Position numbers and translations under genes: made by a program
Shown here: positions 1,238 through 24,407 of the stretch, one piece after another
Layout: each line of letters starts with the position of its first letter
Position numbering within the stretch: position 1 is the first letter of the stretch
Notes under the pieces: model-generated
The model's input: the letters and a program-made list of their open reading frames with translations, nothing else
The model's database searches: none
What the model was told of the DNA's origin: nothing
Assembly: GCA_964419675.1 (NCBI GenBank)
Contig: CAYQPN010000001.1
Coordinates: 44,885 to 87,902, forward strand
DNA: 43,018 bases
Direction: 5' to 3'
From: an uncultured Candidatus Saccharibacteria bacterium
GTDB lineage: Bacteria > Patescibacteriota > Saccharimonadia > Saccharimonadales > SZUA-47

Positions 1238-2287
1238 ATGTTACTATCTAATGAGTTAAAAATTTATAAAAATCGAGTATTTGCAGTCATATTGGTGGCT
1301 CTAATTGCTTTGGCAGCATTGCTTGCACCGGGCTTAACTCGGGCGCAGGAAGAAGGAGGAAGTGGTTTAAGCATTTCTCCTACACGTACTGAACTTTCGT
1401 TGCTACCTGGTACATCAGATGTAGTTACTGTTTCCCTTAAGAACATTACAAGTGGGCCTATTGATGCAAAAGTTTTTATTAATGATTTTGAGCCAGATAA
1501 TGAAACAGGCGAACCACGTATCGTAGTGGATCCAGAAAGAAAAAATGCAGCCTCGATCTCAGGCTTCTTGTCTGGTATTGAAGACGTGACTCTTCTAGCT
1601 GGCGAATCTAAGGATGTGTCAGTGGACGTAACTATTCCTGAGAATGCCGCACCAGGCGGGTACTATGGTGCTCTACGTTTTCAGGCAGTACCAGTAGGTT
1701 CAAGCACAAATCAGACCGGTGGTAGTGAGGTATCATTAACGGCTAATTTACTAAGCCTAGTACTTATAGAAGTTCCAGGTGATATTGAACAAAAAGTTGC
1801 AGTGAATTCGGTGCGTGCATACCTTGATACCAATGCAGGTAGTATATTTACTAAAAAACCAAACTTTGTCGGAATAAAAATAGAGAATAAAGGCAATAGT
1901 TTTGTTAAGCCTTTTGGTCGTGTTTCAGTCAAGAACTTTAGAGGGAATGAGGTATTTACCTACGAGTTGAACGACAGTAATCCTAGGAGTAACATTCTAC
2001 CTACAAGCACTAGAATATTTAAAGATAGGTTGACCAACCTTGAAAAGAAGAGTGTTAACGGGCTTGAAGTGACGAATGAAACCAGCCCTATAACAAGCCC
2101 AGGTCGCTATACTATAACTGCTGATGTGTCCTATGGTAATGGAGGGGAAGTATTCACTGTAAGTTCAACTTTTTGGTACATACCAGGCTGGTTAATGATT
2201 GTACTTGGTGTCTTATTGCTTGGACTAATCCTCGGAGCTTATATGCTCTACAGGAAGTACTCAACTCGTTCTACTCGTCGCAACTAA
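1238..2287 (+). CDS. DUF916-like (WxL-interacting/chaperone-like) surface protein with C-terminal TM anchor
   Basis: Signal peptide; LSISPTRTELSLLPG; VTIPENAAPGGYYGAL; IENKGN..VKPFGRV; C-terminal TM followed by a basic tail; SD GGAGG upstream. Confidence 0.7.
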   Translation: MLLSNELKIYKNRVFAVILVALIALAALLAPGLTRAQEEGGSGLSISPTRTELSLLPGTSDVVTVSLKNITSGPIDAKVFINDFEPDNETGEPRIVVDPERKNAASISGFLSGIEDVTLLAGESKDVSVDVTIPENAAPGGYYGALRFQAVPVGSSTNQTGGSEVSLTANLLSLVLIEVPGDIEQKVAVNSVRAYLDTNAGSIFTKKPNFVGIKIENKGNSFVKPFGRVSVKNFRGNEVFTYELNDSNPRSNILPTSTRIFKDRLTNLEKKSVNGLEVTNETSPITSPGRYTITADVSYGNGGEVFTVSSTFWYIPGWLMIVLGVLLLGLILGAYMLYRKYSTRSTRRN

Positions 2288-2360
2288 AAGCACTTGTGCT
2301 TACATCTAAATTAGGCGTATAATACAAACATTAATAAGTAATAAAAAAGTACCAAAACAA

Positions 2361-3293
2361 ATGAAACAGCTAATACCTCGCTCCTGGCAGGATATGAAGC
2401 GCATGGTTGTAACCATAAGTTTCGTTCTTGCAGCATTCTTCCTCGTGTTGGGTGCCAACGGAGCCAGCGCTCAATCAGACCCAGTCCAATCTGGGTCTGT
2501 TGGTTTAACGGGTACAATCAGTGCTCCGCCACCAACAACGGGTGCTACCATTAGTTTTCCAACAAGTGGCCAAAGTTTTACTGAACTACCGGTAATAATT
2601 AAAGGACTTTGTCCAACTGGTTTATTGGTAAAAGTTTTTAAAAATAATGTATTTGCTGGCTCAGTTCAGTGTGAAAATGGCAGCTTTAGTCTGCAAACCG
2701 ACTTATTTGTTGGTACAAATGAACTTATCGCAAGAGTTTATGATGACTTGGACCAACCAGGCCCGGACTCAAATGTAGTGAACGTTACGTTTAAAGATAA
2801 CCGCATCGGAGCTGGGTCCAGAGTAAGCCTTACCAGTAACTATGCTAAACGCGGAGCTTTTCCAGGTGAAACTTTGACTTGGCCAGTAATTCTAAGTGGA
2901 GGCTCAGGTCCGTACGCTTTCAGCGTAGATTGGGGAGATGGTAAAGAGTTTGACCTCTTCTCTGAGCCATTTGCAGGCACAATAGATTTAAGTCATATTT
3001 ATGATGCTCCAGGTGTTTACAACATAATTGTTAAAACAGTTGATACTAACGGTGTTACAGCGTTCTTGCAGCTTGTCGGTATAGCAAATGGGCCCCTATC
3101 ACAATCTACCGATAATGGTGTTCCTGCCGGGAAAGATAACAGCTTAACCACAACTAAGACTAAAATTTTATGGTGGCCAGCAACCTTACTTGTGCCATTT
3201 GTTGTTTCTACTTTCTGGTTGGGTAAGAAGTATATGGTGCGGGTTATGAAGAAGCGTATTGAGAGAGGCGAGCACCCCTTCGCGGATCTATGA
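2361..3293 (+). CDS. Ig-like/PKD-domain surface protein with C-terminal TM anchor (start may be 2394)
   Basis: Signal peptide ending GASA-Q; PKD motif VDWGDG...HIYDAPGVY; C-terminal hydrophobic segment and basic tail. Confidence 0.7.
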   Translation: MKQLIPRSWQDMKRMVVTISFVLAAFFLVLGANGASAQSDPVQSGSVGLTGTISAPPPTTGATISFPTSGQSFTELPVIIKGLCPTGLLVKVFKNNVFAGSVQCENGSFSLQTDLFVGTNELIARVYDDLDQPGPDSNVVNVTFKDNRIGAGSRVSLTSNYAKRGAFPGETLTWPVILSGGSGPYAFSVDWGDGKEFDLFSEPFAGTIDLSHIYDAPGVYNIIVKTVDTNGVTAFLQLVGIANGPLSQSTDNGVPAGKDNSLTTTKTKILWWPATLLVPFVVSTFWLGKKYMVRVMKKRIERGEHPFADL

Positions 3294-3450
3294 GACAAGG
3301 GCAGGCCCTTTTCTCATCGCGCGGCGTGACTTTCTGAAACAGTTCACTCCGGCTGCTCTTTTCCCAAATCGGAATCTGCTTTCGCCGAAGTGAATTCGCC
3401 GACGCAGATGATTGTTCATTGCGTATCCTCAAAATTCCAATCTGCCTCAA
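3288..3450 (-). repeat. Dispersed structured non-coding element, copy 1 (long form)
   Basis: Shares GAGCAGCCGG, CCGCGCGATGAGA and TCTCATAG blocks with 22563..22629; contains several hairpins. Confidence 0.7.
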
Positions 3451-3507
3451 GTATAGTCCCTAAAGATTGATTATTGGGCTTTAGCTACTCATATTCGAAA
3501 GTGTTAC

Positions 3508-3516
3508 TGGTATACT
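3508..3516 (+). promoter_or_regulatory. Extended -10 promoter (TGgTATACT) 7 nt before the mnmA ATG; probably leaderless
   Basis: Sequence tggtatactgttttagATG; no SD. Confidence 0.55.
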
Positions 3517-3523
3517 GTTTTAG

Positions 3524-4564
3524 ATGAAAAAGGTTTTTGTTGGTTTATCTGGTGGGGTGGATAGCTCTGTCTCGGCTGCTTTATTGAAAGAGCAGGGCTA
3601 CGACGTAGTTGGAGTTTATATGAAGAACTGGTCAAAAGATTTGCCAGGTTTTCCTTGCCCTTGGAAAGAAGATTATCAGGATGCTAAAAGAGTCGCGGTG
3701 AAACTGGGGATTTCTTTTGAAATGTTTGATTTTGAGAAAGAATATTTTGATAAAGTTGTGCAATACATGTTGGACGGATTTAAATCTGGCATCACTCCAA
3801 ACCCCGATATAATGTGCAATCAAGAGATAAAATTCAAGTTATTTTATGACGTTGCTCGGGCAAAAGGAGCTAATTTTATTTCTACGGGTCATTACGCACA
3901 AACAGAGGATGGTAAATTATTGATGGCCATCGACGGCAATAAAGATCAAACCTATTTTTTGTATAGAATATCTCATGAAGCGCTTGAACACACTTTATTC
4001 CCGATAGGGCATTTGACTAAACCCCAGGTTCGAGAAGAGGCTAAAAAGCGGGGCCTAATTACTGCAAACAAAAAAGAATCTATGGGTATATGTTTTGTTG
4101 GTAAAGTAGGAATTAAAGAATTTCTAAGTCAATATGTAGAAACTAAGCCAGGAAAAATATTAGACCAAAATAGACAAGTCATAGGTGAACATGACGGCGC
4201 AATTTTTTATACTATCGGCCAGAGACACGGCTTGGACGTTGGTGGCGGGTTGCCGTATTACGTAACAGGCAAAGATATGAAGAAAAATGAAGTTTACGTG
4301 ACTAGTAACATATCTGACGAATCTCTCTGGTCAGACACTATCGAGCTGACAAATTGTCATTGGATAAGCGAAGTTCCTAAATCAAATCAAAGACTCCAAG
4401 TACGTACTCGTCATAGGGCTAAACTAGAGGACTGTGAGCTTGTTAAAATTAGTGGAGACAAAGCAACTTTGAAGCTTAAACACCCAATCCGCGCCCTGAC
4501 TCCAGGCCAATCAGCAGTAATATACTCAGAAGATATTTGTTTAGGGGGCGGTATAATCTACTGA
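3524..4564 (+). CDS. mnmA: tRNA 2-thiouridine(34) synthase MnmA
   Basis: SGGVDSS PP-loop; TPNPDIMCN; STGHYA; KDQTYFL; ESMGICF; TPGQSAV. Confidence 0.97.
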   Translation: MKKVFVGLSGGVDSSVSAALLKEQGYDVVGVYMKNWSKDLPGFPCPWKEDYQDAKRVAVKLGISFEMFDFEKEYFDKVVQYMLDGFKSGITPNPDIMCNQEIKFKLFYDVARAKGANFISTGHYAQTEDGKLLMAIDGNKDQTYFLYRISHEALEHTLFPIGHLTKPQVREEAKKRGLITANKKESMGICFVGKVGIKEFLSQYVETKPGKILDQNRQVIGEHDGAIFYTIGQRHGLDVGGGLPYYVTGKDMKKNEVYVTSNISDESLWSDTIELTNCHWISEVPKSNQRLQVRTRHRAKLEDCELVKISGDKATLKLKHPIRALTPGQSAVIYSEDICLGGGIIY

Positions 4565-4575
4565 ACTGTTTGCAT

Positions 4576-4603
4576 CTGTAAACTGTAAACTGTAAACTGT
4601 AAA
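4576..4603 (+). repeat. Tandem heptamer (CTGTAAA)x4 immediately upstream of the alaS start
   Basis: ctgtaaactgtaaactgtaaactgtaaa read directly. Confidence 0.9.
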
Positions 4604-4607
4604 TAAT

Positions 4608-6491
4608 ATGACAGCGCAAGAAATACGTACGGCTTATTTGGCGTTTTTTAAGAAACAGGGGCATGCTGTGATTCCCCGTGCACTATTAATACCTCAAAAT
4701 GACCCAACAACGTTATTTACAGGCTCAGGGATGCAGCCTTTAATTCCGTATCTTCTAGGGGAAAAACATCAAAATGGCACAAGGTTAGTTGATAGTCAAA
4801 CCTGCTTACGTTCTGATGACATAGATGAGGTTGGGGACAATCGTCATACAACATTTTTTGAGATGTTAGGAAATTGGAGCTTAGGAGATTATTTTAAAAA
4901 AGAACAGCTCGGGTGGTTTTTTGAGTTTTTAGTCGGAGAGGTTGGCTTAGACCCTCAAAGACTGTACGTAACTTGCTGTAGCGGGTTCCCAGAGTTCAAC
5001 GTCCCAAAAGATACTGAATCTGCTGAGATATGGACGGGACTATTCAGCGAACAAGGTGTTGGAACTAAGCAGGTAGAAATTGGCTCTGAACAAAATGGTT
5101 ATAAAGTGGGTGAGCAAGGTGGCCGGATATTCTTCTATGACGAAAAAAATTGGTGGAGCAGAAACGGTGCTCCTAAGAACGTGAAAGTTGGAGAGCCTTG
5201 TGGCCCTGACAGCGAAGTTTTTTATGTTTTTGAGCAAGTTAAGCATGATAAAAAATGGGGTGAATTTTGCCACCCAAACTGTGATTGCGGTCGCTATGTA
5301 GAAATAGGTAATTCTGTATTTATGGAATATTTAAAAACAGAAAAAGGTTTTGAAAAGCTTCCATCTAAAAACGTAGACTTCGGAGGTGGATTAGAGCGCA
5401 TTGCCACAGCTTCCATAGACAGCCCCGACTTCTTTAAGATTAGTATTCTATGGCCAATTATTGAGAAACTAGTGGATCTATCTGGCAAATCTTACGAATC
5501 AAATACTGAGGCAATGCGGATAATCGCTGACCATTTACGGGCTGCGACATTCTTGGCTGTTGACGGAGTTGTGCCAAACAATAAAGAACAGGGCTATGTT
5601 ATGCGCCGTCTAATGAGAAGAGCGATTTTGAAAGCTTTCAATCTTGGGATTGAACAAAATTTCATGCAAGAAGTCGTTCCGGTTATTGCAGATTTATATC
5701 ATGAAGATTTTCCGGAAGTTAAAGAAAATAGAATGAAAGTGATTGATGTGCTTGCTAAAGAAGAGAAGATTTTTCGCCAGACAATTAGGAATGGAAAAAG
5801 AATCCTCACAAAAATGTCAGACAACGGCTTAACTGGAGCAGAAGTATTCATGCTTCACGACACATATGGCTTTCCTGTGGAGCTGAGTATCGAAGAAGCA
5901 AAAGTAAACGGAGTAAAAGTAGACGAGAATTGGCAATCAGAATTTGATGTAAAAATGAAAGAACAGCGAGAGCGCTCGCAAACCGCTGCAAAAGGGACTT
6001 TTAAGGGTGGTCTTGGTGGTCAAAGTCTTCAGCATATGAAGTATCACACAGCAACGCATCTAATGTATCAGGCGCTTCGAGAGGTTTTGGGCGACCACGT
6101 TGTACAGCACGGGTCTAATATCACAGAAGAACGTTTACGCTTTGATTTTTCACATCTTGAAAAAGTTACACCAGAGCAAATTGCCAAAGTTGAAGAAATT
6201 GTGAATAAGCAGATAGCTAATGATTTAAAAGTAACTTGGGCAGAATATCCAACTGCGGAGGCAACAGGAAAACTTGGTGCGCTTGGACAATTTGGCGACC
6301 GCTACGGCGACACAGTCAAGGTTTATAAAATGATTGCTGATAACGCCGATAAACCATTTAGCTTTGAAATCTGCGGAGGTCCACATGTTGACCACACTCT
6401 TCAGCTTTTTGAAGACAACAAAAAATTCAAAATCCTAAAAGAAGAATCAAGTTCAGCCGGAATCCGTAGAATTAAAGCCGCTCTGGTTTAA
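4608..6491 (+). CDS. alaS: Alanine--tRNA ligase, short form lacking the C-Ala domain
   Basis: DPTTLFT; RHTTFFEMLGNWS; GGGLER; IADHLRA; HTATH...CGGPH editing motif; ends at AGIRRIKAALV. Confidence 0.96.
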   Translation: MTAQEIRTAYLAFFKKQGHAVIPRALLIPQNDPTTLFTGSGMQPLIPYLLGEKHQNGTRLVDSQTCLRSDDIDEVGDNRHTTFFEMLGNWSLGDYFKKEQLGWFFEFLVGEVGLDPQRLYVTCCSGFPEFNVPKDTESAEIWTGLFSEQGVGTKQVEIGSEQNGYKVGEQGGRIFFYDEKNWWSRNGAPKNVKVGEPCGPDSEVFYVFEQVKHDKKWGEFCHPNCDCGRYVEIGNSVFMEYLKTEKGFEKLPSKNVDFGGGLERIATASIDSPDFFKISILWPIIEKLVDLSGKSYESNTEAMRIIADHLRAATFLAVDGVVPNNKEQGYVMRRLMRRAILKAFNLGIEQNFMQEVVPVIADLYHEDFPEVKENRMKVIDVLAKEEKIFRQTIRNGKRILTKMSDNGLTGAEVFMLHDTYGFPVELSIEEAKVNGVKVDENWQSEFDVKMKEQRERSQTAAKGTFKGGLGGQSLQHMKYHTATHLMYQALREVLGDHVVQHGSNITEERLRFDFSHLEKVTPEQIAKVEEIVNKQIANDLKVTWAEYPTAEATGKLGALGQFGDRYGDTVKVYKMIADNADKPFSFEICGGPHVDHTLQLFEDNKKFKILKEESSSAGIRRIKAALV

Positions 6492-6560
6492 ATTTTAACC
6501 AAAAAGAACTCTACTCATCTCTGTTTATAGAGCCTGTTAGCATGGTACAATAAAACGCAT

Positions 6561-7862
6561 ATGCTAGAGAAGTTATCTAAAGCAAAAAATACTGTTAAAT
6601 CAAAGATAGCAGAGCGCAAAGCTATTGCTGGCGAACGCTATATCGTGGCTCTAGATATTGGTACAGAAAACGTAAAAGCACTTATCGGAAAAGTCACAGC
6701 AGGTGGGGTAGACATTATTGGTGTTGGACGTGCTCATCAAGGTTTAAGCGACATGCAAGCGGGGGCGATTTCTGATATTGCATCCGTAACCGCCAATTGT
6801 AACAAAGCCCTTGCTCAAGCAGAAGAAATTGCCAAAGTTAGTGCTAGGGCGGTAGTTATTGGTATAGCAGGGGAACTAGTAAAAGGTACAACTATATCCG
6901 TAAAAATAAGTCGCAGTGATGCCAAAAAACCGCTTGATGTTGAAGAAGTTGAAAAAATTATATCGCTAGTCCAAAAAAGAGCATTTGAAAAAGCCAAGGA
7001 ACAGATAGCTGATGAACTTGGAGGCAAAGATGTCGATGTCCAACTGGTAAATAGCGCACTAGTGCGTATGGAGATTGACGGTTACACTGTCACCAACCCA
7101 ATAGGCTTTCAAGGGAAAGAAGTCTCAGTTCAACTCTACACCGCTTTTGCCCCACTAATTCACATCGGAGCGCTAGAGCAAGTTGCCACTCAGCTTGACA
7201 TGGATTTGCTGGCAGTTGCTGCGGAGCCTTTTGCTGTTGCTCGTTCAGTTGTTGGTGATGATTCAGACTCAACGATGAGCGCAGTTTTGATGGACGTGGG
7301 AGGTGGTACCACAGATATTGCGGTTTTAAACGAGGGCGGAGTTCAAGGTACACAAATGTTCGGAATCGGTGGCCGGGCTTTTACTCGTAGCATCGAAAAA
7401 AGTCTAGACATCACATTCGACGAAGCTGAAACATTGAAAATCGCTTTGGGCAAGAACAATTTACAAGAAAATAAAGCTCGCTCAGTTGAAAGTGCTTTGG
7501 CAAACACCGTTGCAGTTTGGCGTTCCGGTGTAGAGCTTGCGCTAGAGGAATTTACGGGCTTAGATCATCTACCGCATAACATCTTGCTTTGTGGGGGAGG
7601 CGCCAGTTTGCAACTTCTTGTTAATGAGCTTGAAACACAAAGCTGGTACCGCGACCTTCCGTTTGCAAAAAAGCCCGATGTTCACTACATTTCGCCTGAC
7701 TCAGTAGTAGGCATTTATGACACAACCGATAAATTAGCAGACCACACATTTATAACGGCAATGGGGCTACTTAGAGTTGGTCTTGATACAATAGGTCAAA
7801 CAGGTAACAAGGACGCCACAATTACAATTCGTGATCGAATTAACAGGATTCTTAGGATATGA
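6561..7862 (+). CDS. FtsA-like actin-family ATPase (possibly a paralogue; no adjacent ftsZ)
   Basis: ALDIGTE phosphate-1; AEPFAVA; DVGGGTTDIAV phosphate-2; LCGGGA; C-terminal amphipathic helix IRDRINRILRI. Confidence 0.85.
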   Translation: MLEKLSKAKNTVKSKIAERKAIAGERYIVALDIGTENVKALIGKVTAGGVDIIGVGRAHQGLSDMQAGAISDIASVTANCNKALAQAEEIAKVSARAVVIGIAGELVKGTTISVKISRSDAKKPLDVEEVEKIISLVQKRAFEKAKEQIADELGGKDVDVQLVNSALVRMEIDGYTVTNPIGFQGKEVSVQLYTAFAPLIHIGALEQVATQLDMDLLAVAAEPFAVARSVVGDDSDSTMSAVLMDVGGGTTDIAVLNEGGVQGTQMFGIGGRAFTRSIEKSLDITFDEAETLKIALGKNNLQENKARSVESALANTVAVWRSGVELALEEFTGLDHLPHNILLCGGGASLQLLVNELETQSWYRDLPFAKKPDVHYISPDSVVGIYDTTDKLADHTFITAMGLLRVGLDTIGQTGNKDATITIRDRINRILRI

Positions 7863-9553
7863 GCATAAAAAAAAGTCATGTAAAAATGGCTCCTAGCCAC
7901 GAACTATCTCAGTCTGCTACTGCCTCAAAAGATACGATATATATTGATGTTGATGACGAGATAACCTCAGTTATTGAACGTGTTGATAGGGCAAAGCATA
8001 AGGTTGTGGCTTTAGTATTGCCAAAACACGTTACTGTCTTTCAAAGTGCGGTGAACATGAAGCTTCTAAAAAAAGCGTCATTAAACTCCTCAAAAAACTT
8101 AGTACTTATCACCTCTGATAAAAGCGTTATAGCAATTTGCGCTGCAGCTGGAATCCATGTGGCAAAAACGCTTTCTACCAAGCCAGAGATTCCGATGCGC
8201 ATTAAGACCCATAGTTACGACGAGGGTTCGGCCGGTTCAACCGAAAAACTGGAGTTAGAAAGCGAACAGTTATCCACCAGTCCAAAAACTACTGATAGTG
8301 ACATTATTGAGCTAGACAATAGCGATTCTGCGTTGAAAGGTAAAGAAAACACAAACGTAAAAGAAAAATCATCAAAATTTAAAATACCGGACTTCGGGAA
8401 CTTTAGAGTTAAACTAGGAGTTTCGGTTTTAGCATTAGTCCTATTAATCGTCGGTTGGGTGTACGCATTCGTGATTGCCCCAAAAGCGACAGTTACTATT
8501 AACACAGATGTCTCAACCAGTGCCGTTGACGCTAAAATTGTCGCCAAAGTAGGTAGTGCAACCTTTGACCTTGAACAAAACATAATTCCAGCGCAACTTG
8601 TTCAAGTCGAAAAGCAGGATACAGCTACGGTTCCTGCAACCGGCAAAAAGAATGTAGGTCAAAAAGCAATCGGTACAATGACTCTTACTAACTGTATTAA
8701 TGACGGGGAAGACAAGATAATACCCGCTGGCACAACATTTTCTTCCGGTAGTTTTAATTTTGTAACTACAGAACAAGTAACGATTCCTTTTGCAATCTAT
8801 GCAGGAAAAACATGTAAGAGCAGTGAATTTGGTAGGCAAAAAGACGTTGGCGTGATCGCTTCCCAATCTGGTTCTGACTACAACATCGCCGCGCGGTCCT
8901 ACACCTCAAGCATTAGCGGAATTCAAGCCTATGGTTCAGATATGAGTGGTGGAACCAACGATTATATAACTGTCGTTTCAGCAGAAGACGTTGATAATGC
9001 CAAAAAACAGTTGAGCGGTGTAAGTAAAACTGCAGCATTGGAAGATATGAAAAAGCAGTTGACAGAGCTTGGGTTAAAATCGATTGATGAAACTATTACG
9101 GAGGGTAAACCTGAAGAATCAGTCACGCCAGCCGTCGATAAAGAGGCTAAAGAGGTTAAAGTAACGGTTGCTATCAACTATAGCTTAATCGGTGTTTCAG
9201 AGGAGCAGTTGGTTAGTATCCTAGACAATGAAATATCTAAGAACCTTGTAGATAAAAAGCAAAATGTTAGAAGTAACGGACTAGATAAATTAGTCTTTAG
9301 GGTTCTAGAAAAACCTTCTGAGGCTGAAACAGTTTTAAATATTCAAACAATCGCAACTGTTGGGCCGGAAATTGATGTTGAGCAGATAAAACGCGACGTT
9401 GTTGGCAAAAAGCGCGGTGATATTGAAAAGCAGATTGAATCGTTGAGTGGTGTTCGTTCAGTAAGTGTTGAATATAGCCCGGTTTGGATAACTACAACTC
9501 CAAAAAGTGTTGATAAAATTGAAGTAATTATTTCTGAGCAAGATGGTCAATAA
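7859..9553 (+). CDS. Bitopic membrane protein with a large extracellular beta-rich domain (baseplate-J-like by recollection)
   Basis: N-terminal IYIDVDDEITSVI...VNMKLLKK domain, acidic linker, single TM, then ATGKK..GQKAIGTMT, IPAGTTF, GSDYNI, MSGGT motifs; overlaps the ftsA-like stop. Confidence 0.6.
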   Translation: MSIKKSHVKMAPSHELSQSATASKDTIYIDVDDEITSVIERVDRAKHKVVALVLPKHVTVFQSAVNMKLLKKASLNSSKNLVLITSDKSVIAICAAAGIHVAKTLSTKPEIPMRIKTHSYDEGSAGSTEKLELESEQLSTSPKTTDSDIIELDNSDSALKGKENTNVKEKSSKFKIPDFGNFRVKLGVSVLALVLLIVGWVYAFVIAPKATVTINTDVSTSAVDAKIVAKVGSATFDLEQNIIPAQLVQVEKQDTATVPATGKKNVGQKAIGTMTLTNCINDGEDKIIPAGTTFSSGSFNFVTTEQVTIPFAIYAGKTCKSSEFGRQKDVGVIASQSGSDYNIAARSYTSSISGIQAYGSDMSGGTNDYITVVSAEDVDNAKKQLSGVSKTAALEDMKKQLTELGLKSIDETITEGKPEESVTPAVDKEAKEVKVTVAINYSLIGVSEEQLVSILDNEISKNLVDKKQNVRSNGLDKLVFRVLEKPSEAETVLNIQTIATVGPEIDVEQIKRDVVGKKRGDIEKQIESLSGVRSVSVEYSPVWITTTPKSVDKIEVIISEQDGQ

Positions 9554-9962
9554 ATTGATTGGTGATATCATTGGGCTTGACGTAGGGTCGCGCCGTATAG
9601 GCGTAGCTAGGGTTAGCACGCAGGCTAGACTACCGGAGCCTCTTAAAGTTATAGATATGGGGGCTCAAGAGCCATTTTCAGCCGTTCTAAGCACAATTGA
9701 TACACATTCTGCTGTAGCTGTTGTTGTTGGTCTACCTAGGGGCCTAGATGGTCAAGAAACTTCACAGACCAAATATTGTCGGGATTTTGCCAAGAAATTA
9801 GAGCAAAAAGTCAAAATCCCAGTATTTTTAATAGATGAAGCAGGTACAACTAAAGAAGCAGAACAACGTGCTAAAGGGGTTGAAAGCGTAAGTATTGACA
9901 GTGTTGCGGCGATGATTATATTAGAAGATTTTTTAACTCAATTAGACAGAGGTGAAATATAA
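9543..9962 (+). CDS. yqgF: YqgF/RuvX pre-16S rRNA nuclease
   Basis: GLDVGSRRIGVA; VVVGLP; IDEAGTT; IDSVAAMIILE. Confidence 0.92.
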   Translation: MVNKLIGDIIGLDVGSRRIGVARVSTQARLPEPLKVIDMGAQEPFSAVLSTIDTHSAVAVVVGLPRGLDGQETSQTKYCRDFAKKLEQKVKIPVFLIDEAGTTKEAEQRAKGVESVSIDSVAAMIILEDFLTQLDRGEI

Positions 9963-11008
9963 TGACGACGTACCACAAAAAAAGAGGGATAGCTAAGAAA
10001 AGAAAATGGCCCTATATTCTAGCTGGGTCGATTTTAGCTCTAATAATCGGCGTTGTAATTAGTGTTTTTTCTTGGTATACAATTTCTCTGCGTCCTCTAT
10101 CGTCGTCTCAAGAAGAGATAATTATAACGATTCCGGTTGGGGCAACAGTTGAGCAGATAGGCGTAAACCTACAAAGTAACGGTGTGATACGGTCTTCAAA
10201 GGCTTTTGATTGGTACATACGCTTAAAAGGTTTTAGGGGTCAAATGCAAGCTGGTGGCTATAAATTTACTCCCTCTCAATCGGTTGAGGAAATAGTTAGA
10301 AACATCGCTGACGGGCGTGTAGCAACAGATTTAGTAACCATATTGCCAGCACAGAGATTGGACCAGTTGGAAGCTTCTTTTCTTGTAGCTGGTTATAGTC
10401 ATGAAGAAGTTTTAAACTCCCTCAACCCCGCTAACTATGCTGGCCACCCAGCGCTAGCAGATAAACCCGCAGATGCATCGCTGGAGGGCTATCTTTATCC
10501 AGAGAGTTTCCAAAGGTCTTCTACAACGAAACTGGACACCGTAATCGGAGCAAGTTTAGACGAAATGGCAAAAGCGCTAACACCTGAACTAAAATCGGCT
10601 TTCCAAAAGCAAGGCTTAACAGTTCATCAGGCGGTTATTCTGGCCTCAATTGTTGAAAAAGAGGTTAGTAATTCCCAAGACCGCCCAATAGTTGCACAGG
10701 TATTCTTGAAACGCTATAAATCCGGGATAATGCTGGGCTCAGATGTAACAGCCTTTTATGGTGCTAAAATAGTAGATGCAGAACCGTCGGTTACATTCGA
10801 TAGTCCGTATAACACGCGTATTTACAGTGGTTTGCCCCCCGGCCCCATTAATAACGTTGGAGCCGAATCGCTTAGGGCGGTTGCGTTTCCGGCCGACACA
10901 GACTATCTATATTTTGTATCTGGTGATGACGGGAAAACGTACTTCTCGTATACTCTTGCCGAGCATGAATCGCTTACCGCGCAACATTGTATAGAATTAT
11001 GCAATTAG
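9962..11008 (+). CDS. mltG: Endolytic transglycosylase MltG
   Basis: N-terminal TM; LEGYLYPES; LASIVEKE; SPYNTR..GLPPGPINN; YLYFV. Confidence 0.95.
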   Translation: MTTYHKKRGIAKKRKWPYILAGSILALIIGVVISVFSWYTISLRPLSSSQEEIIITIPVGATVEQIGVNLQSNGVIRSSKAFDWYIRLKGFRGQMQAGGYKFTPSQSVEEIVRNIADGRVATDLVTILPAQRLDQLEASFLVAGYSHEEVLNSLNPANYAGHPALADKPADASLEGYLYPESFQRSSTTKLDTVIGASLDEMAKALTPELKSAFQKQGLTVHQAVILASIVEKEVSNSQDRPIVAQVFLKRYKSGIMLGSDVTAFYGAKIVDAEPSVTFDSPYNTRIYSGLPPGPINNVGAESLRAVAFPADTDYLYFVSGDDGKTYFSYTLAEHESLTAQHCIELCN

Positions 11009-11047
11009 TCAATTTATTTAACAGGGGTAGGGAGCGCTTTTAATAGG

Positions 11048-11076
11048 TTGACACATATATCTGTGCCTGCTATACT
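11048..11076 (+). promoter_or_regulatory. Sigma70-type promoter TTGACA-17 nt-TATACT with extended TG
   Basis: ttgaca 11048-11053; tgc-tatact 11068-11076. Confidence 0.8.
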
Positions 11077-11082
11077 CTTCTC

Positions 11083-11250
11083 TTGTAGTAACACTTTAGA
11101 ACCCTAGATACATAAGTTCTAAGAAAGACTACCCGTAAGCTGTTAAATATGTAATAAATAATCGAGGCAGGTCGAACTACCTCGAAATAAATTAACTAAC
11201 CCCAGCTATTGCGGAAGGTGCATCAGAAGATGAAGACTAGCACCAGGAGA
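11083..11250 (+). ncRNA. Structured 5' leader of the LysM/CHAP gene (candidate cis-regulatory RNA, possibly the lysM-TM7 motif)
   Basis: Nested stems gtagt/actac + ttagaac/gttctaa; ccgtaa/ttgcgg + gctg/cagc + tcgaggcag/ctacctcga; ggtgc/gcacc directly before SD AGGAG. Confidence 0.6.
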
Positions 11251-11255
11251 GATTC

Positions 11256-22023: not shown

Positions 22024-22536
22024 ATGGCACTAGAGCTACCAAGACTAGTCATCGATGAAGGGCTAGAAATAGTCCGTTTTACGGAAGAGTTTGTAAGGCC
22101 TGTGTTCGACTTGATTGAGACTAATCGAGCGCATTTAAGCCAGTTTAATGATGATACAGCGGATAAATATCAATCAATACAGCCTTTGTATGAAAGCGTT
22201 ATGCGCCCAAGAAACACTCTACGTGAGAGGTATGTAATATTGGGCGGTGATGCTGTAGTTGGTTCTATTAATGTTGAACCCACAGGTCTCAAAGCTACAT
22301 CGTTTGTCATGGGATACTGGCTTGGTGAACAGTTTACAGGCAATGGGTACGCCTCAAGATCAACTCGCGCCCTTTCAGATGAAGTACTACAGCGTCCAGG
22401 AGTAAGGCGAGTAAATGCGTATACACATCTCGAAAACATAGCTAGTCAAAACGTATTGCAAAATTCAGGGTTCGTATTGTTGGGTGCAGTTAAGCACGGT
22501 TCAGATATCAGTAACCGTTTTGTAAAGACTAAATAA
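22024..22536 (+). CDS. GNAT N-acetyltransferase, RimJ/RimL family
   Basis: NRAHLSQF; MGYWLGEQFTGNGYAS; NIASQNVLQNSGF. Confidence 0.85.
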   Translation: MALELPRLVIDEGLEIVRFTEEFVRPVFDLIETNRAHLSQFNDDTADKYQSIQPLYESVMRPRNTLRERYVILGGDAVVGSINVEPTGLKATSFVMGYWLGEQFTGNGYASRSTRALSDEVLQRPGVRRVNAYTHLENIASQNVLQNSGFVLLGAVKHGSDISNRFVKTK

Positions 22537-22562
22537 TCTGATTATTATATTGTCCCAGGGGT

Positions 22563-22629
22563 GAGCAGCCGGCTGAAGCTATTTACTCGATTCTTCCGCG
22601 CGATGAGAGGGGATGCTCCCCTCTCATAG
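22563..22629 (+). repeat. Dispersed structured non-coding element, copy 2 (short form); the hairpin may also terminate convergent transcription
   Basis: GAGCAGCCGG...CCGCGCG-ATGAGAGGGGA-tgc-TCCCCTCTCAT-AG. Confidence 0.7.
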
Positions 22630-22631
22630 GG

Positions 22632-24407
22632 TCAGTCCTGTAAAAATCCACCAGATTGGTGGCTCCAGAGACGGGCGTAGAGCCCGTCTTTCTTTGCTAT
22701 CAGCTCTTTGTGTGTTCCTTCTTCAACTATTCTACCTTCGTCTAAAACTAATATCCTATCCATTTTTTGGATTGTGCTCAAGCGGTGGGCAATAACAATA
22801 GCTGTACGGCCTTCCATAAGTTTCCACAGTGCTTGCTGGATCAGTACTTCACTTTCTGAATCAAGAGCACTTGTAGCCTCGTCCAGTACCAATATCGGTG
22901 CATCTTTAAGCATTGCTCGGGCAATAGCCACACGCTGACGTTGCCCACCGGACAGCTTAACACCTCTCTCTCCGACAAGGGTTTCGTATCCTTGAGAAAG
23001 CTCATTTATGAACTTATCGGCGCTAGCGTTTTTAGAAGCAGTTACTATTTCTTTTTTTGTAGCGTTTAATTTTCCATAAGAGATATTTTCGGTCAGAGTC
23101 CGGTGAAACAATAGTGGCTCTTGTGGAACGTAGGAGATATAATTTCTTATATCCGCTTGCTTAACTTTTGAAATATCTTGTCCGCCTACTAAAATTTGTC
23201 CTTCTTGGATGTCCATAAAGCGCATTAGTAGTTTGGTTATGGATGTTTTTCCTCCTCCGCTTGGGCCTACCAAGCCAATTTTTTCTCCGGGCTTCACTTC
23301 AAAATTCAAGTTGCTAAACAAGGCAGTCTTCTGATTGTTTTCTGGGTACCAAAAAGAAAGATTCTCTACTTTGATACCACTATTAATCGGTAGAAATCTA
23401 TCAGCGTTTTTGGGATCTTGGACTTCTGGTTTGCTTAATAGAATCTCTGTCATATCACTGGCGTCTCCAAACACGCGTGTAAACTGTCGAAAAGTGTTGT
23501 TAAGGTCCCACAGACGTCGCATTATCCCGATGGTGTATGTAAGAGCCAGGTAAATTACTCCAACTTCAATTTTTCCACCAACAGCTAAAATTACAGATAC
23601 TAAAATTGCAAATACATTGATGCTCCTCTGGAGAGAACCACTGACTAGTTCCTGCTTCATGTTTATCCTCATAGTCTCTATCGATCGTTGTCGCACTTCT
23701 TCAACCCGCTCGCGCATTCGCTTTAACTCCAGAGCTTCGTTTGCAAAAGATTTAACCGCGACTACGTTGGAAATAGAATCAGCTAGCTGACCGGTTCGAT
23801 GCGTCTCAGCCTTCGACCAGCGTTTGTTATAGGGCAATTGTCGTTTTCTGAAATACCAAACAACAGGTACATAAATTATGGTAATTATCCAAATCCCAAC
23901 TACAACTTGAGGCGCTTTTGGAGCAAGTATCAAAGATGTGAAAATGATTGAAAGAACAAGTTTATAGACGTTCCAGGTAAGTGGGTCTGTGAATCTTTCA
24001 AACGAACCTACGAATTTGTTGGTTTGGTTGACAATTGAGCCAGCAAATCTCTCAGCAAAAAAGCGGTAGCTCATACCCTGCAAATGCTTGAACACTGTCA
24101 TGTTTAGGTCGCGCATGACTGTTTCTTGCAAGCGCCAAAAAATTGGCACAACAACCTTATTCCACATTAAATGGCCAAATGCTTCAAGAAGAAATATAAA
24201 TAGTAGGGGTTTCCAAACTACCGAGGCAGCCAATTGGTCAGTATTGTTCTGGGCTATATTAGTAATAATTGCGCTCACCAAAAGGGGCTGAAGCATATCT
24301 TCGGCAAATTGAGTAATAGCCATGGAAGGGTAAATAATCCATAGCTCGCGCTTGTATTTCTTTGTGTGCTGCCAATATATACGCAGCGTTTGTGATGCCG
24401 TGCTCAT
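22632..24407 (-). CDS. ABC exporter, fused permease/ATPase (MdlB/MsbA-like)
   Basis: Multi-TM N-terminal domain; GPSGGGKT; LSGGQRQR; LVLDEATSALD; IAHRLST. Confidence 0.93.
   Translation of the reverse strand: MSTASQTLRIYWQHTKKYKRELWIIYPSMAITQFAEDMLQPLLVSAIITNIAQNNTDQLAASVVWKPLLFIFLLEAFGHLMWNKVVVPIFWRLQETVMRDLNMTVFKHLQGMSYRFFAERFAGSIVNQTNKFVGSFERFTDPLTWNVYKLVLSIIFTSLILAPKAPQVVVGIWIITIIYVPVVWYFRKRQLPYNKRWSKAETHRTGQLADSISNVVAVKSFANEALELKRMRERVEEVRQRSIETMRINMKQELVSGSLQRSINVFAILVSVILAVGGKIEVGVIYLALTYTIGIMRRLWDLNNTFRQFTRVFGDASDMTEILLSKPEVQDPKNADRFLPINSGIKVENLSFWYPENNQKTALFSNLNFEVKPGEKIGLVGPSGGGKTSITKLLMRFMDIQEGQILVGGQDISKVKQADIRNYISYVPQEPLLFHRTLTENISYGKLNATKKEIVTASKNASADKFINELSQGYETLVGERGVKLSGGQRQRVAIARAMLKDAPILVLDEATSALDSESEVLIQQALWKLMEGRTAIVIAHRLSTIQKMDRILVLDEGRIVEEGTHKELIAKKDGLYARLWSHQSGGFLQD

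What the first reader, a model, noticed from the sequence alone, without database searches (positions are those of the whole stretch)
3288..3450. Dispersed structured non-coding element family, copy 1
Seen: 3288-3358 (+) reads CTATGAGA-caagggcaggcccttt-TCTCATCGCGCGG-..-TTCA-ct-CCGGCTGCTC. The reverse complement of 22563-22629 reads CTATGAGA-ggggagcatcccc-TCTCATCGCGCGG-..-TTCA-g-CCGGCTGCTC. The fixed blocks are identical, and the hairpin interior differs but still pairs. Both copies abut a stop codon in the same relative orientation. Copy 1 has a ~90-nt extension whose stems (CAGAUUGGA/UCCGAUUUG, AUCUGC/GCAGAU) pair best on the minus strand through G-U pairs. Inference: an unannotated non-autonomous mobile element (REP/MITE/PATE-like) or ncRNA family acting as single-stranded nucleic acid. 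No transposase or reverse transcriptase is present in the window.
Basis: partly seen in the sequence, partly recalled or inferred. Interest (0 to 1): 0.8.

Follow-up and report, generated by a model that had tools for sequence, protein, structure and literature searches.

The report
Dispersed triple-helix hairpin element of Saccharibacteria
The two look-alike stretches belong to a large, previously undescribed family of about 85-base folded non-coding elements scattered through Saccharibacteria genomes, whose tail appears to lie in the groove of its first hairpin as a triple helix.

Summary
Both window copies (3285-3370 +, 22551-22632 -) belong to a family with 18 copies in this 783-kb genome. 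It was found in 50 of 61 related genomes of the same order, at up to 26 copies each, but is essentially not found outside that order. No Rfam family matches it.

Anatomy: hairpin P1, a one-base linker, hairpin P2 (bulged G, RURAA pentaloop), UG, then a roughly 10-nt pyrimidine tail. Both hairpins covary strongly: 91.7% of cells pair, against 39-58% in slid controls.

New here: the tail covaries with the purine arm of P1 in parallel register (G to C, A to U). 359 of 404 positions fit, and none of 2000 shuffles reached that. This is the code of a major-groove triple helix.

Copies fill operon spacers (groES-groEL, rpsC-rplP, rplJ-rplL), follow stop codons, flank rRNA and tRNA genes, and sit at hairpin tips inside a 23S rRNA and a cobalamin riboswitch. 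No associated transposase was found.

Function is inferred, not shown. The most likely reading is a self-contained stable fold that marks and protects transcript ends. The acting strand, and whether it acts as RNA or DNA, remain open.

The parts
3285..3370 (+). Copy 1, whole element as matched by covariance model R1
   Evidence: 69.4 bits, E 1.6e-18. It lies in the spacer between ORF 2361..3293 (a weak PKD_4 match, below Pfam's cut-off, is its only hit) and mnmA, which starts at 3524.
3290..3317 (+). Copy 1, hairpin P1 (purine-rich 5' arm 3292-3301, pyrimidine-rich 3' arm 3306-3315); the stop codon TGA of the upstream ORF is 3291-3293
   Evidence: Read; fold; model alignment.
3319..3353 (+). 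Copy 1, hairpin P2 with the conserved base GCgCG/CGGC (bulged G) and an atypical loop
   Evidence: pair counts.
3356..3365 (+). Copy 1, pyrimidine tail CTCTTTTCCC, the proposed third strand on P1
   Evidence: Read in parallel against the P1 5' arm GAGACAAGGG, all 9 purines carry the Hoogsteen partner (G with C, A with T). This can be read directly.
3374..3409 (+). Copy 1 'extension': extra hairpin (outer stem ATCTGC/GCAGAT) enclosing a second P2-type stem-loop at 3386-3398
   Evidence: Kept in the G018 ortholog, where the outer stem changes to ATTTGC/GCAAAT. Not shared by other copies.
22551..22632 (-). Copy 2, whole element as matched by R1
   Evidence: 66.8 bits, E 8.9e-18. It lies between the convergent ABC-transporter ORF 22632..24407 (-) and GNAT ORF 22024..22536 (+).
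22603..22627 (-). Copy 2, hairpin P1 (G-rich 5' arm GAGAGGGGA)
22568..22601 (-). Copy 2, hairpin P2 (pentaloop GTAAA)
22557..22565 (-). Copy 2, tail CTCACCCCT, the proposed third strand
   Evidence: 8 of 9 purines of the arm GAGAGGGGA carry the Hoogsteen partner in parallel register (read; listed).

Best explanation
What it is (shown): a family of roughly 85-nt structured non-coding elements, essentially restricted to one order (records titled Candidatus Saccharibacteria, Saccharimonadales or Saccharimonadia).

Each copy has this layout:
- a short G+C-rich 5' flank;
- hairpin P1, with a purine-rich 5' arm starting (A)UGAGA and a pyrimidine-rich 3' arm;
- one linker base;
- hairpin P2, with a conserved base GCgCG/CGGC, a bulged G and an RURAA pentaloop;
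- UG;
- a roughly 10-nt pyrimidine tail starting CUC.

The tail is the mirror image of the P1 3' arm. Read parallel to the P1 purine arm, it carries C opposite G-C pairs and U opposite A-U pairs, and it skips mismatched P1 positions.

How it folds (inferred from covariation): the tail leaves the foot of P2, which stacks next to the foot of P1. It then runs up the major groove of P1 as the third strand of a pyrimidine-motif triple helix of about 8-10 triples. The whole element becomes a compact, self-closing knot.

What it does (inferred, not shown): the knot is a self-contained, very stable fold placed at gene boundaries. The P1 side always faces the gene and the tail faces away. I think it most likely works in RNA as an end-marking and end-protecting module:
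- After a stop codon or a tRNA (forward orientation), the 3' tail is tucked into the triplex and blocks 3'-to-5' decay.
- In front of a start codon or a mature rRNA or tRNA 5' end (reverse orientation, the commoner one), the mirrored purine strand and the two hairpins shield the downstream cistron and set processing boundaries in polycistronic transcripts.

Its genomic behaviour resembles REP, ERIC or Rickettsia palindromic elements. It is tolerated, and occasionally gained or lost, in spacers and at hairpin tips of structural RNAs.
For: Family and spread:
- 18 full matches in the own genome (17 at 55.9 bits or more).
- 50 of 61 genomes of the same order have it (28 of 30 in the own family, 21 of 30 other families), at up to 26 matches per genome. 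These counts include two unpublished genomes, G006 and G019.
- In a phylum sample, 9 of 151 genomes match. Strong multi-copy hits occur only in the same order.
- 80 loci were listed from 119 matching stretches in GTDB representatives, almost all titled Saccharibacteria, Saccharimonadales or Saccharimonadia.

Hairpins:
- On 101 copies, 91.7% of cells pair, against 38.7-57.7% when partners are slid by 1-3 columns.
- 23 of 25 pairs carry changes on both sides.
- 539 compensated cells were seen, against 144.7 in shuffles (55 copies).

Triple helix:
- 359 of 404 arm purines beyond the invariant GAG have the Hoogsteen partner in register 0, against 29-69% at shifts of -3 to +3.
- Tail shuffles gave a mean of 264 and a maximum of 292 in 2000 trials.
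- With one copy per distinct arm (40 arms): 134 of 157, against 94.9 +/- 5.3; 0 of 2000 shuffles reached it.
- The number of A's after the mismatch tracks the number of U's in the tail (1, 2, 3 or 4). G-rich arms carry matching C-rich tails.
- In copies picked by a fixed tail (CTCTTTTCC), 79 of 95 arms are the predicted ..CAAAC.. class and none is G-rich. In the unselected set, 16 of 101 arms are G-rich.
- 'Mini' forms in another order lack P2 but keep the code (GAGGGGAAA with CUCCCCUUU; GAGAGGAAA with CUCUCCUUU).
- The code holds in every context class.
- It co-evolved at one orthologous site, own genome versus G018 downstream of the same gene.

Transcription of the forward strand:
- Copies are embedded co-directionally in a 133-nt insertion at a domain-V hairpin tip of 23S rRNA in G007.
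- Copies sit at the tip of the hairpin after the B12 box of a cobalamin riboswitch in the own genome, G014 and G018. DUF4430/DUF6580 genes lie downstream in the own genome.
- Mini forms start 0-7 nt after tRNA genes.

Transcription of the reverse strand:
- Copies sit between rplF-rplR, rpsC-rplP, rplO-secY, groES-groEL, rplJ-rplL, ftsE-ftsX, rpsF-ssb and yidC-jag. They also sit 1-10 nt before the 23S, 5S and tRNA 5' ends.

P1 faces the gene:
- Gap from stop codon to P1 is -9 to +7 nt in 16 of 36 cases.
- Gap from P1 to start codon peaks at 14-17 nt.

Sites are kept across families: groEL, jag, ssb, ftsX.

Both exonuclease directions exist here: RNase J (485 bits) and PNPase (878 bits).
Against: - No expression data: no RNA run was available, so neither strand nor ends are known.
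- Most copies lie antisense to their flanking genes when read in the forward orientation: 47 against 21 and 53 against 10. In most sites the transcribed strand is therefore the reverse complement. There the triplex would have to be of the purine motif, which from general knowledge is poorly tolerated in all-RNA helices.
- Wobble pairs are rare. If anything they favour the reverse strand: in forward notation G-U 25 and A-C 36 in A4, and G-U 13 and A-C 40 in A5. This fits DNA, or both strands, as well as RNA.
- Tails with runs of C would need several adjacent protonated cytosines.
- No promoter-like hexamer sits at a fixed distance upstream of the reverse-oriented copies. A 5' end there would have to come from processing.
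- Protection from decay is wholly inferred.
Confidence: 0.4

Rival explanations
1. It works as DNA. On transiently single-stranded DNA (replication, uptake, repair) or in supercoiled duplex, the two inverted repeats extrude. The mirror-repeat tail then forms an H-DNA-like intramolecular triplex: pyrimidine motif on one strand, purine motif on the other. This structure would serve as a recognition or pausing structure for a DNA enzyme.
For: - The mirror-repeat rule is symmetric, so both strands can form a triplex in DNA.
- The code is kept in both orientations relative to genes.
- Wobble pairs are rare and not biased to one strand in the way usual for RNA.
- The 2:1 orientation bias relative to genes equals the bias relative to GC skew in the own genome (12 to 6).
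Against: - The purine strand of the triplex is supplied in cis by a hairpin, which needs a single strand, not duplex H-DNA.
- Orientation is not strict relative to replication (12 to 6).
- Copies embedded in 23S rRNA and in a riboswitch must be compatible with RNA folding, and all four such sites (three riboswitches, one published 23S) have the forward strand in the RNA.
- The P1-to-gene spacing rule follows ORF ends.
- No partner enzyme was found.
Confidence: 0.25
2. It is a selfish non-autonomous mobile element (MITE, REP or RPE-like) with no host function. Its fold is kept because an unidentified enzyme needs it for mobilisation. Its distribution reflects where insertions are tolerated.
For: - Presence or absence at hairpin tips of 23S rRNA (filled in G007; empty in the own genome, G002, G008, G012 and G060).
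- Presence or absence in the cobalamin riboswitch: 2 of 29 loci hold it (own genome and G014), and G018, fetched separately, is a third. G003, of the same genus as G018, lacks it.
- A decayed remnant in G011 and none in G012 upstream of mnmA.
- Copy number varies from 0 to 26 among relatives.
- Copies cluster.
- The orientation bias in operons could be a selection filter.
Against: - No terminal inverted repeats or target duplications.
- No link with Y1 transposases: 19 of 50 against 4 of 11.
- Copies within a genome differ widely in stem sequence but keep pairing.
- Orthologous copies across families show compensatory change in place, which points to selection at each site.
- No near-identical recent copies apart from one tandem pair.
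Confidence: 0.2
3. In the forward orientation it is a transcription terminator: P2 plus the U-rich tail, or the P1 inner stem plus its U run.
For: - The main class has a U-rich tail directly after a G+C-based hairpin.
- Forward copies hug stop codons and are followed by long spacers (median 221 nt to the next start, against 41 nt for reverse copies).
- Forward copies are the minority inside operons.
- The mini forms after tRNAs are followed by a P2-type hairpin flanked by an A run and a U run.
Against: - The consensus scan calls no terminator at either window copy.
- G-rich variants have C-rich tails without a U tract.
- Forward copies sit inside a 23S rRNA gene and inside a riboswitch aptamer, upstream of the genes it controls.
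- A forward copy sits between rpsG and fusA with gaps of 4 and 20 nt.
Confidence: 0.1
4. It is a protein-loading site related to the boxB-boxA antitermination signals: the P2 pentaloop hairpin followed by UGCUCUUU.
For: The conserved block after P2 begins like the boxA consensus as I recall it. That consensus comes from memory and from no call. The order of hairpin then block matches the rrn arrangement, also as recalled.
Against: - Only the first five bases (UGCUC) are kept in G-rich variants.
- The rrn leaders of four relatives carry only loose boxA-like strings.
- Most copies are antisense to transcription.
- The tail covaries with P1, which a fixed protein site would not do.
Confidence: 0.05

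Closest known systems
REP/BIME, ERIC and Rickettsia palindromic elements (dispersed palindromic repeats of bacteria; properties recalled from general knowledge)
   Same: - Short, structured and multi-copy.
- Strictly outside ORFs, often inside operon spacers and transcribed.
- Found in both orientations.
- Copy number varies between relatives.
- Like Rickettsia elements, some copies sit inside RNA genes in a small genome.
   Different: - No associated tyrosine transposase.
- Stems differ between copies while pairing is kept.
- Conserved across a whole order, with orthologous sites.
- Carries a third-strand (mirror) rule that none of those families is known to have.
ENE / MALAT1 / PAN 3'-end triple helices (review PMC13541005: passages found by term search only; not read in full)
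   Same: A major-groove triple helix of U.A-U and C+.G-C type is proposed to hide an RNA end and stabilise the transcript.
   Different: - There a U-rich internal loop clamps an A-rich 3' tract.
- Here a hairpin supplies purine and pyrimidine strands, and a 3' pyrimidine tail is the Hoogsteen strand, joined through a second hairpin.
- This element is bacterial, multi-copy and found in both orientations.
- The review's passages on prokaryotes name only riboswitches and group II introns. The word 'terminator' does not occur in it.
H-DNA (intramolecular triplex at homopurine-homopyrimidine mirror repeats; PMC11667243, abstract in the search listing only)
   Same: Mirror-repeat symmetry of the pyrimidine strand; the G-to-C and A-to-T third-strand code.
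   Different: - The two mirror halves are split by a roughly 40-nt hairpin.
- The purine strand comes from the same strand through an inverted repeat, so a single strand rather than a duplex is required.
Intervening sequences of 23S rRNA (recalled from general knowledge)
   Same: One copy forms part of a 133-nt insertion at the tip of a 23S hairpin.
   Different: - The site is a domain-V hairpin.
- The same element is mostly found outside rRNA.
- Excision and fragmentation are not known here.

Membership tests
Any Rfam 15 family | Covariance-model match at or near the gathering score | tested here: not met
   The window at gathering thresholds gives only 3 tRNAs. Window 3200-3540 at E up to 10 gives two chance-level hits outside the element. 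Twelve copy loci at E up to 1 give no hit explaining the element. The AdoCbl hit belongs to a host riboswitch around one copy.
REP / RAYT system | Co-occurrence with, and flanking of, a Y1 (HUH) RAYT transposase gene | tested here: not met
   One PF01797 ORF lies in the own genome at C3:187971-188204. No R1 match lies on C3 beyond 145270. PF01797 occurs in 19 of 50 element-positive and 4 of 11 element-negative genomes.
REP / RAYT system | Single short (about 20-40 nt) imperfect palindrome with a fixed 5' tetranucleotide (recalled) | tested here: not met
   The element is about 85 nt, with two different hairpins plus a tail.
MITE | Terminal inverted repeats and target-site duplication | tested here: not met
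   The ends (5' ..ATGAGA, 3' ..TTTTCCC) are not inverted copies of each other, and the flanks are unrelated. No duplicated flank appears at filled versus empty sites. This rests on inspection only.
IS200/IS605-type palindrome-associated element | Subterminal hairpins at both ends plus a TnpA or TnpB partner | tested here: inconclusive
   Hairpins are present but no link with Y1_Tnp was found. TnpB was not searched.
Intrinsic terminator | G+C-rich hairpin directly followed by a U tract, located at the end of a transcription unit | tested here: inconclusive
   The consensus scan does not call either window copy. The main class has a U-rich tail, but G-rich variants do not. Forward copies sit inside 23S rRNA, a riboswitch and rpsG-fusA.
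Major-groove pyrimidine-motif triple helix | Third pyrimidine strand parallel to the purine strand, C opposite G-C and U/T opposite A-U/T | tested here: met
   Covariation only: 359 of 404 in register, 0 of 2000 shuffles as high. This holds in all contexts, in mini forms of another order and in tail-selected copies. No physical test was possible.
ENE-type stability element | U-rich internal loop flanked by stems that clamps an A-rich 3' tract (recalled) | tested here: not met
   No U-rich internal loop and no A-rich tract; the strand topology differs.
Integron attC site | R''/L''...L'/R' boxes with a conserved R' core and arrays of promoterless cassettes (recalled) | not tested
   By eye the recalled core motif is not seen in the alignments. 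No integrase search was made.
Small ORF | Conserved reading frame | tested here: not met
   The conserved 3' block falls in different frames in the two window copies because of indels between the blocks. Changes are compensatory in stems, not codon-periodic (my own reading of frames).

The most novel reading that the evidence does not exclude
Saccharibacteria carry a bacterial counterpart of exonuclease-resistant RNA. It is an autonomous two-hairpin module whose terminal strand is locked into an 8-10-triple major-groove helix. The module is used in both orientations as a cap on the distal side of cistrons, rRNAs and tRNAs. Forward copies stop 3'-to-5' decay (PNPase). Reverse copies, through the mirrored purine strand, stop 5'-to-3' decay (RNase J) and set processing boundaries in operon transcripts. 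It would be the longest natural triple helix known in bacteria and the first dispersed one. Because many triples would be C+.G-C, it might also respond to pH.
Probability: 0.2. Interest if true: 0.92.

Novelty: new variant of a known kind. Interest (0 to 1): 0.8.

Why it matters
Saccharibacteria are reduced, host-dependent bacteria with very little non-coding DNA. Yet they keep up to 26 copies of an 85-nt fold inside their most conserved operons, their rRNA operon and even a riboswitch.

If the triple helix is real, it is a new natural architecture: a hairpin plus a mirror tail joined through a second hairpin. It would also be the first dispersed triplex-forming element reported in bacteria.

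It gives a directly testable handle on how transcripts are processed and stabilised in a lineage where almost nothing is known about RNA metabolism. It also matters for annotation, because the element explains many 'empty' spacers, an insertion in 23S rRNA and a sub-threshold cobalamin riboswitch.

Tried and rejected
Rfam: there is no match at gathering or permissive thresholds. The one hit overlapping a copy is a host cobalamin riboswitch.

Expression: for window 2300-12000, no RNA holder was listed. Read laying was therefore not used. This says nothing about expression.

Promoter and terminator consensus: nothing is called at either window copy. No -10-like hexamer sits at a fixed distance upstream of reverse-oriented copies.

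Transposase partner: Y1_Tnp was rejected as a partner. Other transposase families, integrases and reverse transcriptases were not searched.

Replication polarity: 12 of 18 own copies have the forward strand on the C-rich strand, so there is no strict rule.

Tail pairing with downstream sequence: complements of 6 nt or more within 45 nt occur in 12 of 99 copies (A4) and 5 of 95 copies (A5). Shuffled downstream sequence gives about 10.1 and 5.0, so there is no enrichment.

Empty-site test:
- Upstream of mnmA, 27 loci were searched. Two carry the element there (own genome, G018). Two more carry one downstream of mnmA. G011 has a decayed P1, G002 a divergent copy and G012 none. No clean boundaries were found.
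- The locus from unpublished G006 was left out.

Small ORF: rejected, because the frames differ between copies.

boxA/boxB lead: this motif was recalled from memory. The rrn leaders of four relatives show only loose matches, so the lead is neither supported nor excluded.

A model of the permuted mini form was not built, because three sequences aligned out of register.

A generic mirror-tail scan of the own genome gave 14 hits, against 2 in the reversed genome. Four are known copies, one is a divergent relative (C6:1364-1433) and the rest are A/T-rich and probably chance.

Literature:
- Searches found no description of this element.
- Passages found by term search were read in PMC13541005, PMC8040213 and PMC5737381. 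The last names only a lysM-TM7 motif for this phylum.
- Supplementary motif tables of those surveys could not be seen and might list this motif.

Caveats on counts:
- A4 holds the 101 best matches in 90 loci chosen from the top of the lists.
- A5 holds 95 matches in 80 loci picked by a pattern that fixes the linker and the tail.
- ORF calls are my own longest-ORF calls, so start-codon gaps are approximate (negative gaps are over-long ORFs).
- Copies are related to one another, so shuffle counts are not probabilities.
Full report
**1. The observation**

- The 13-mer TCTCATCGCGCGG and the 10-mer CCGGCTGCTC each occur exactly twice in the window, at the stated places.
- The hairpin between CTATGAGA and TCTCAT differs in sequence but pairs in both copies.
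- Copy 1 overlaps the TGA of ORF 2361..3293.
- Copy 2 begins 4 nt after the TGA of the ABC-transporter ORF 22632..24407.
- A filter-free search with the family model finds these two copies and nothing else in the window.

**2. The family**

The window is G000:C1:44885-87902 of a 783-kb, 6-contig assembly with 40% G+C.
- A regex scan and then a covariance model (R1: 84 positions, 25 pairs, built from 16 copies) find 18 full-length copies in this genome.
- In 60 relatives plus the own genome, 50 of 61 genomes have matches: 28 of 30 in the same family and 21 of 30 other families of the order. There are up to 26 per genome and about 500 matches in all. G006 and G019 are unpublished and are included in these tallies.
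- In an even sample of the phylum, 9 of 151 genomes match. Strong or multi-copy hits occur only in the same order (2 of its 6 sampled genomes). Six single weak hits occur elsewhere.
The 80 listed records are titled Candidatus Saccharibacteria, Saccharimonadales, Saccharimonadia, Saccharimonas or Microsaccharimonas, apart from two odd bins and a few records titled only 'bacterium' or 'Patescibacteria group bacterium'.
- No Rfam family matches.

**3. Anatomy**

The conserved core runs from about 5 nt before P1 to about 12 nt after P2. The flanks beyond that are unrelated.
- P1 is a 12-pair hairpin. Its 5' arm is purine-rich and usually starts (A)UGAGA. A C.U mismatch at the fifth or sixth pair is common.
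- One base (C) separates P1 from P2.
- P2 has 13 pairs. Its base is GC-g-CG paired with CGGC, with a bulged G and an invariant C-G. Its loop is a pentaloop RURAA (AUAAA, GUAAA, AUGAA, GUGAA).
- P2 is followed by UG and a pyrimidine tail that starts CUC.
- On 101 copies, 91.7% of cells pair, against 38.7-57.7% for slid partners. 23 of 25 pairs have changes on both sides (for 55 copies).

**4. The tail obeys a third-strand code**

Reading the alignment, the tail is the mirror image of the P1 3' arm. Equivalently, read in parallel with the P1 5' arm, it has C where the arm has G and U where the arm has A.

Examples:
- GAGGGGAGA with CUCCCCUCU.
- GAGAGGAGG with CUCUCCUCC.
- GAGAGGGGA with CUCUCCCCU.
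- GAGA-c-AAACC with CUCU-UUUCCC.
- GAGA-c-ACCCC with CUCU-UCCCG.
- GAGA-c-AAAAC with CUCU-UUUUCC.

Formal test:
- Beyond the invariant GAG/CUC, and skipping non-Watson-Crick P1 positions, 359 of 404 arm purines have the expected tail base.
- Neighbouring registers give 29-69%.
- 2000 tail shuffles give a mean of 264 and at most 292.
- With one copy per distinct arm (40 arms), the count is 134 of 157 against 94.9 +/- 5.3, never reached in 2000 shuffles.

Further support:
- An independent prediction holds. Among 95 copies drawn mostly by a pattern that fixes the tail as CTCTTTTCC, 79 arms are of the ..CAAAC.. class and none is G-rich. In the unselected set 16 of 101 arms are G-rich. A shorter stem goes with ..CCT instead of ..CCC.
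- The rule holds in each genomic context.
- Both window copies obey it: 9 of 9 for copy 1 and 8 of 9 for copy 2, read directly.
- A parallel G-to-C, A-to-U relation is the code of a pyrimidine-motif major-groove triple helix.
- The topology fits. The tail leaves the foot of P2, which is one base from the foot of P1, and runs in the same 5'-to-3' direction as the purine arm.
- Tail C's opposite C-G pairs at the distal end would be C.C-G triples. The review PMC13541005 mentions that type for a group II intron (passage seen).
- No energy or structure tool here can test a triplex. This is covariation evidence only.

**5. Where copies sit**

Using my own ORF calls on 101 copies:
- 47 lie between co-directional genes with the forward strand antisense, so the mRNA carries the reverse complement.
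- 21 lie between co-directional genes in the forward sense.
- 13 lie between divergent genes and 11 between convergent genes.
- In the second set the numbers are 53, 10, 13 and 12.

The P1 side faces the gene:
- Forward copies start -9 to +7 nt from a stop codon in 16 of 36 cases.
- Reverse copies end 14-17 nt before a start codon.
- Forward copies are followed by long spacers (median 221 nt); reverse copies are not (median 41 nt).

Reverse copies occupy the spacers of classical operons: rplF-rplR, rpsC-rplP, rplO-secY, groES-groEL, rplJ-rplL, ftsE-ftsX, rpsF-ssb and yidC-jag. They also precede rplJ, nusG, nusA, tsf and rpoD. Pfam confirmed the proteins; the others are named from their N-terminal sequences by my own reading. 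A GCGAAGCG string often lies between P1 and the start codon.

In rRNA operons, reverse copies lie 10 nt before 23S (G013) and 1 nt before 5S (G041). One lies next to a tRNA 5' end.

The same site is occupied in different families, with different, compensated P2 stems: groEL, jag, ssb and ftsX.

**6. Forward copies inside functional RNAs**

*Cobalamin riboswitch.*
- Own-genome copy C4:78720-78801 lies inside a cobalamin riboswitch that falls below threshold only because of it (34 bits against 50).
- The core and the P1 helix of the riboswitch are intact. DUF4430 and DUF6580 genes follow.
- The element replaces the short apical loop of the hairpin after the B12 box.
- The riboswitch is single-copy in 45 of 61 relatives.
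- Among 29 loci, the element is inside it in the own genome and G014. G018 was fetched separately and also has it.
- G003 (same genus as G018), G007, G009, G011, G012, G015, G034 and G052 have a plain short hairpin there.

*23S rRNA.*
- In G007 the element lies in a 133-nt insertion at the tip of a domain-V hairpin of 23S rRNA, co-directional with the rRNA.
- The same pattern matched in the two unpublished genomes.
- The own genome, G002, G008, G012 and G060 have no insertion there.

These cases show three things. The forward strand is transcribed and tolerated as an autonomous domain. It is not a strong terminator. Copies have been gained or lost at genus scale.

**7. Variants**

- In three genomes of another order (G080, G108, G157), R1 finds 'mini' forms: P1, a roughly 10-nt linker and the tail, with the code intact.
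- The mini forms start 0-7 nt after tRNA genes on the same strand. They are followed by a P2-type hairpin, with the same loop, flanked by an A run and a U run. The modules are therefore permuted: P1, tail, then P2.
- A full form lies between rpsG and fusA in G201.
- The 'extension' of window copy 1 is the same idea. It is an extra hairpin (3374-3409) that encloses a P2-type stem-loop. The G018 ortholog keeps it with a compensatory change.
- A divergent relative that R1 misses lies at own C6:1364-1433, again followed by a P2-type hairpin.

**8. What it is not**

- There is no link with Y1 transposases, and no terminal inverted repeats or target duplications.
- There is no conserved reading frame.
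- No promoter or terminator consensus is called.
- There is no strict replication polarity.
- The tail is not enriched for downstream Watson-Crick partners.

**9. Which strand, and RNA or DNA?**

This stays open.

For forward RNA:
- The pyrimidine motif is the form known in natural RNAs.
- All four embedded sites (three riboswitches, one published 23S) and the tRNA-trailing mini forms are forward.

For reverse RNA or DNA:
- Most copies are reverse in the mRNA sense.
- Wobble-compatible departures are few and lean 2:1 to the reverse strand.
- The mirror code equally fits a purine-motif triplex on the reverse strand. That is usual for DNA. From general knowledge, single purine.purine-pyrimidine triples also occur in tRNA cores.

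The triplex rule is kept in both orientation classes. So either both strands are used, or the acting molecule is DNA.

**10. Mechanism I commit to (confidence 0.4)**

- The element is a compact triple-helix-locked fold that acts in cis on transcripts as an end-marking and end-protecting module.
- P1 is proximal to the gene and the locked strand is distal.
- It has spread and persisted in the manner of REP, ERIC or Rickettsia-type repeats.
- RNase J and PNPase are both encoded here; no RNB-family enzyme was found.
- Every functional step (ends, protection, processing) is inference.

**11. Novelty**

- Six literature searches and term searches within three papers found no description.
- I rate it a new variant of known kinds (dispersed structured repeats; RNA or DNA triple helices) with an architecture not described before.

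Noticed in passing
own genome G000:C4:78736-78860 (-) (loci L013, L288, L305), outside the window: A cobalamin (AdoCbl-class) riboswitch scores below Rfam's cut-off (34 against 50 bits) because an element copy sits at the tip of one of its hairpins. DUF4430, DUF6580 and a cytidylyltransferase-like gene follow on the same strand. One copy of this riboswitch was found in 45 of 61 related genomes, only 3 of them above the cut-off.
   Followed up: yes
L050 1464-1597 (-) = G007:C1, 23S rRNA gene: A 133-nt insertion at the tip of a domain-V hairpin of 23S rRNA contains a forward element copy. The part of the gene shown (L050, 3085 nt for model positions 872-2913) holds about 1 kb of extra sequence in all, so further insertions (introns?) are likely.
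   Followed up: partly
L071 1501-1612, L073 1501-1616, L075 1501-1610 (genomes G080, G108, G157 of another order): Permuted 'mini' forms (P1, short linker, tail, then a P2-type terminator-like hairpin) lie directly after tRNA genes.
   Followed up: partly
own genome G000:C3:187971-188204 (-) (L127, ORF 1315..1947 -): A 210-aa Y1_Tnp (IS200-like, HUH) ORF that is not flanked by the element. Similar ORFs of about 205-240 aa occur in 23 of 61 relatives, sometimes in 6-9 copies.
   Followed up: partly
own genome G000:C6:1364-1475 (+): A divergent relative of the element that model R1 misses: G-rich P1, a different linker, a matching C-rich tail, then a P2-type hairpin. The family is probably wider than R1 shows.
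   Followed up: no
P1-side flanks of reverse-oriented copies, e.g. L017 1585-1599, L020, L044, L091, L117: A recurrent GCGAAGCG string followed by an A-rich stretch lies between P1 and the start codon of rplJ, nusA, tsf, groEL, rplL, ssb and rpoD, without an obvious GGAGG. The forward-oriented copies after stop codons carry a comparable small G+C-rich hairpin (GGC-AA-GCC type) before P1.
   Followed up: no
window 22648-22691: Two overlapping terminator-like hairpins lie on opposite strands just inside the 3' end of the ABC-transporter ORF. Three such sites were found, against 0.5 expected.
   Followed up: no
loci L163-L168 (G003, G009, G010, G031): The mnmA match is split into two pieces (residues 2-128 and about 125-345) within one long open frame, so these orthologs carry an insertion of about 25-40 residues.
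   Followed up: no
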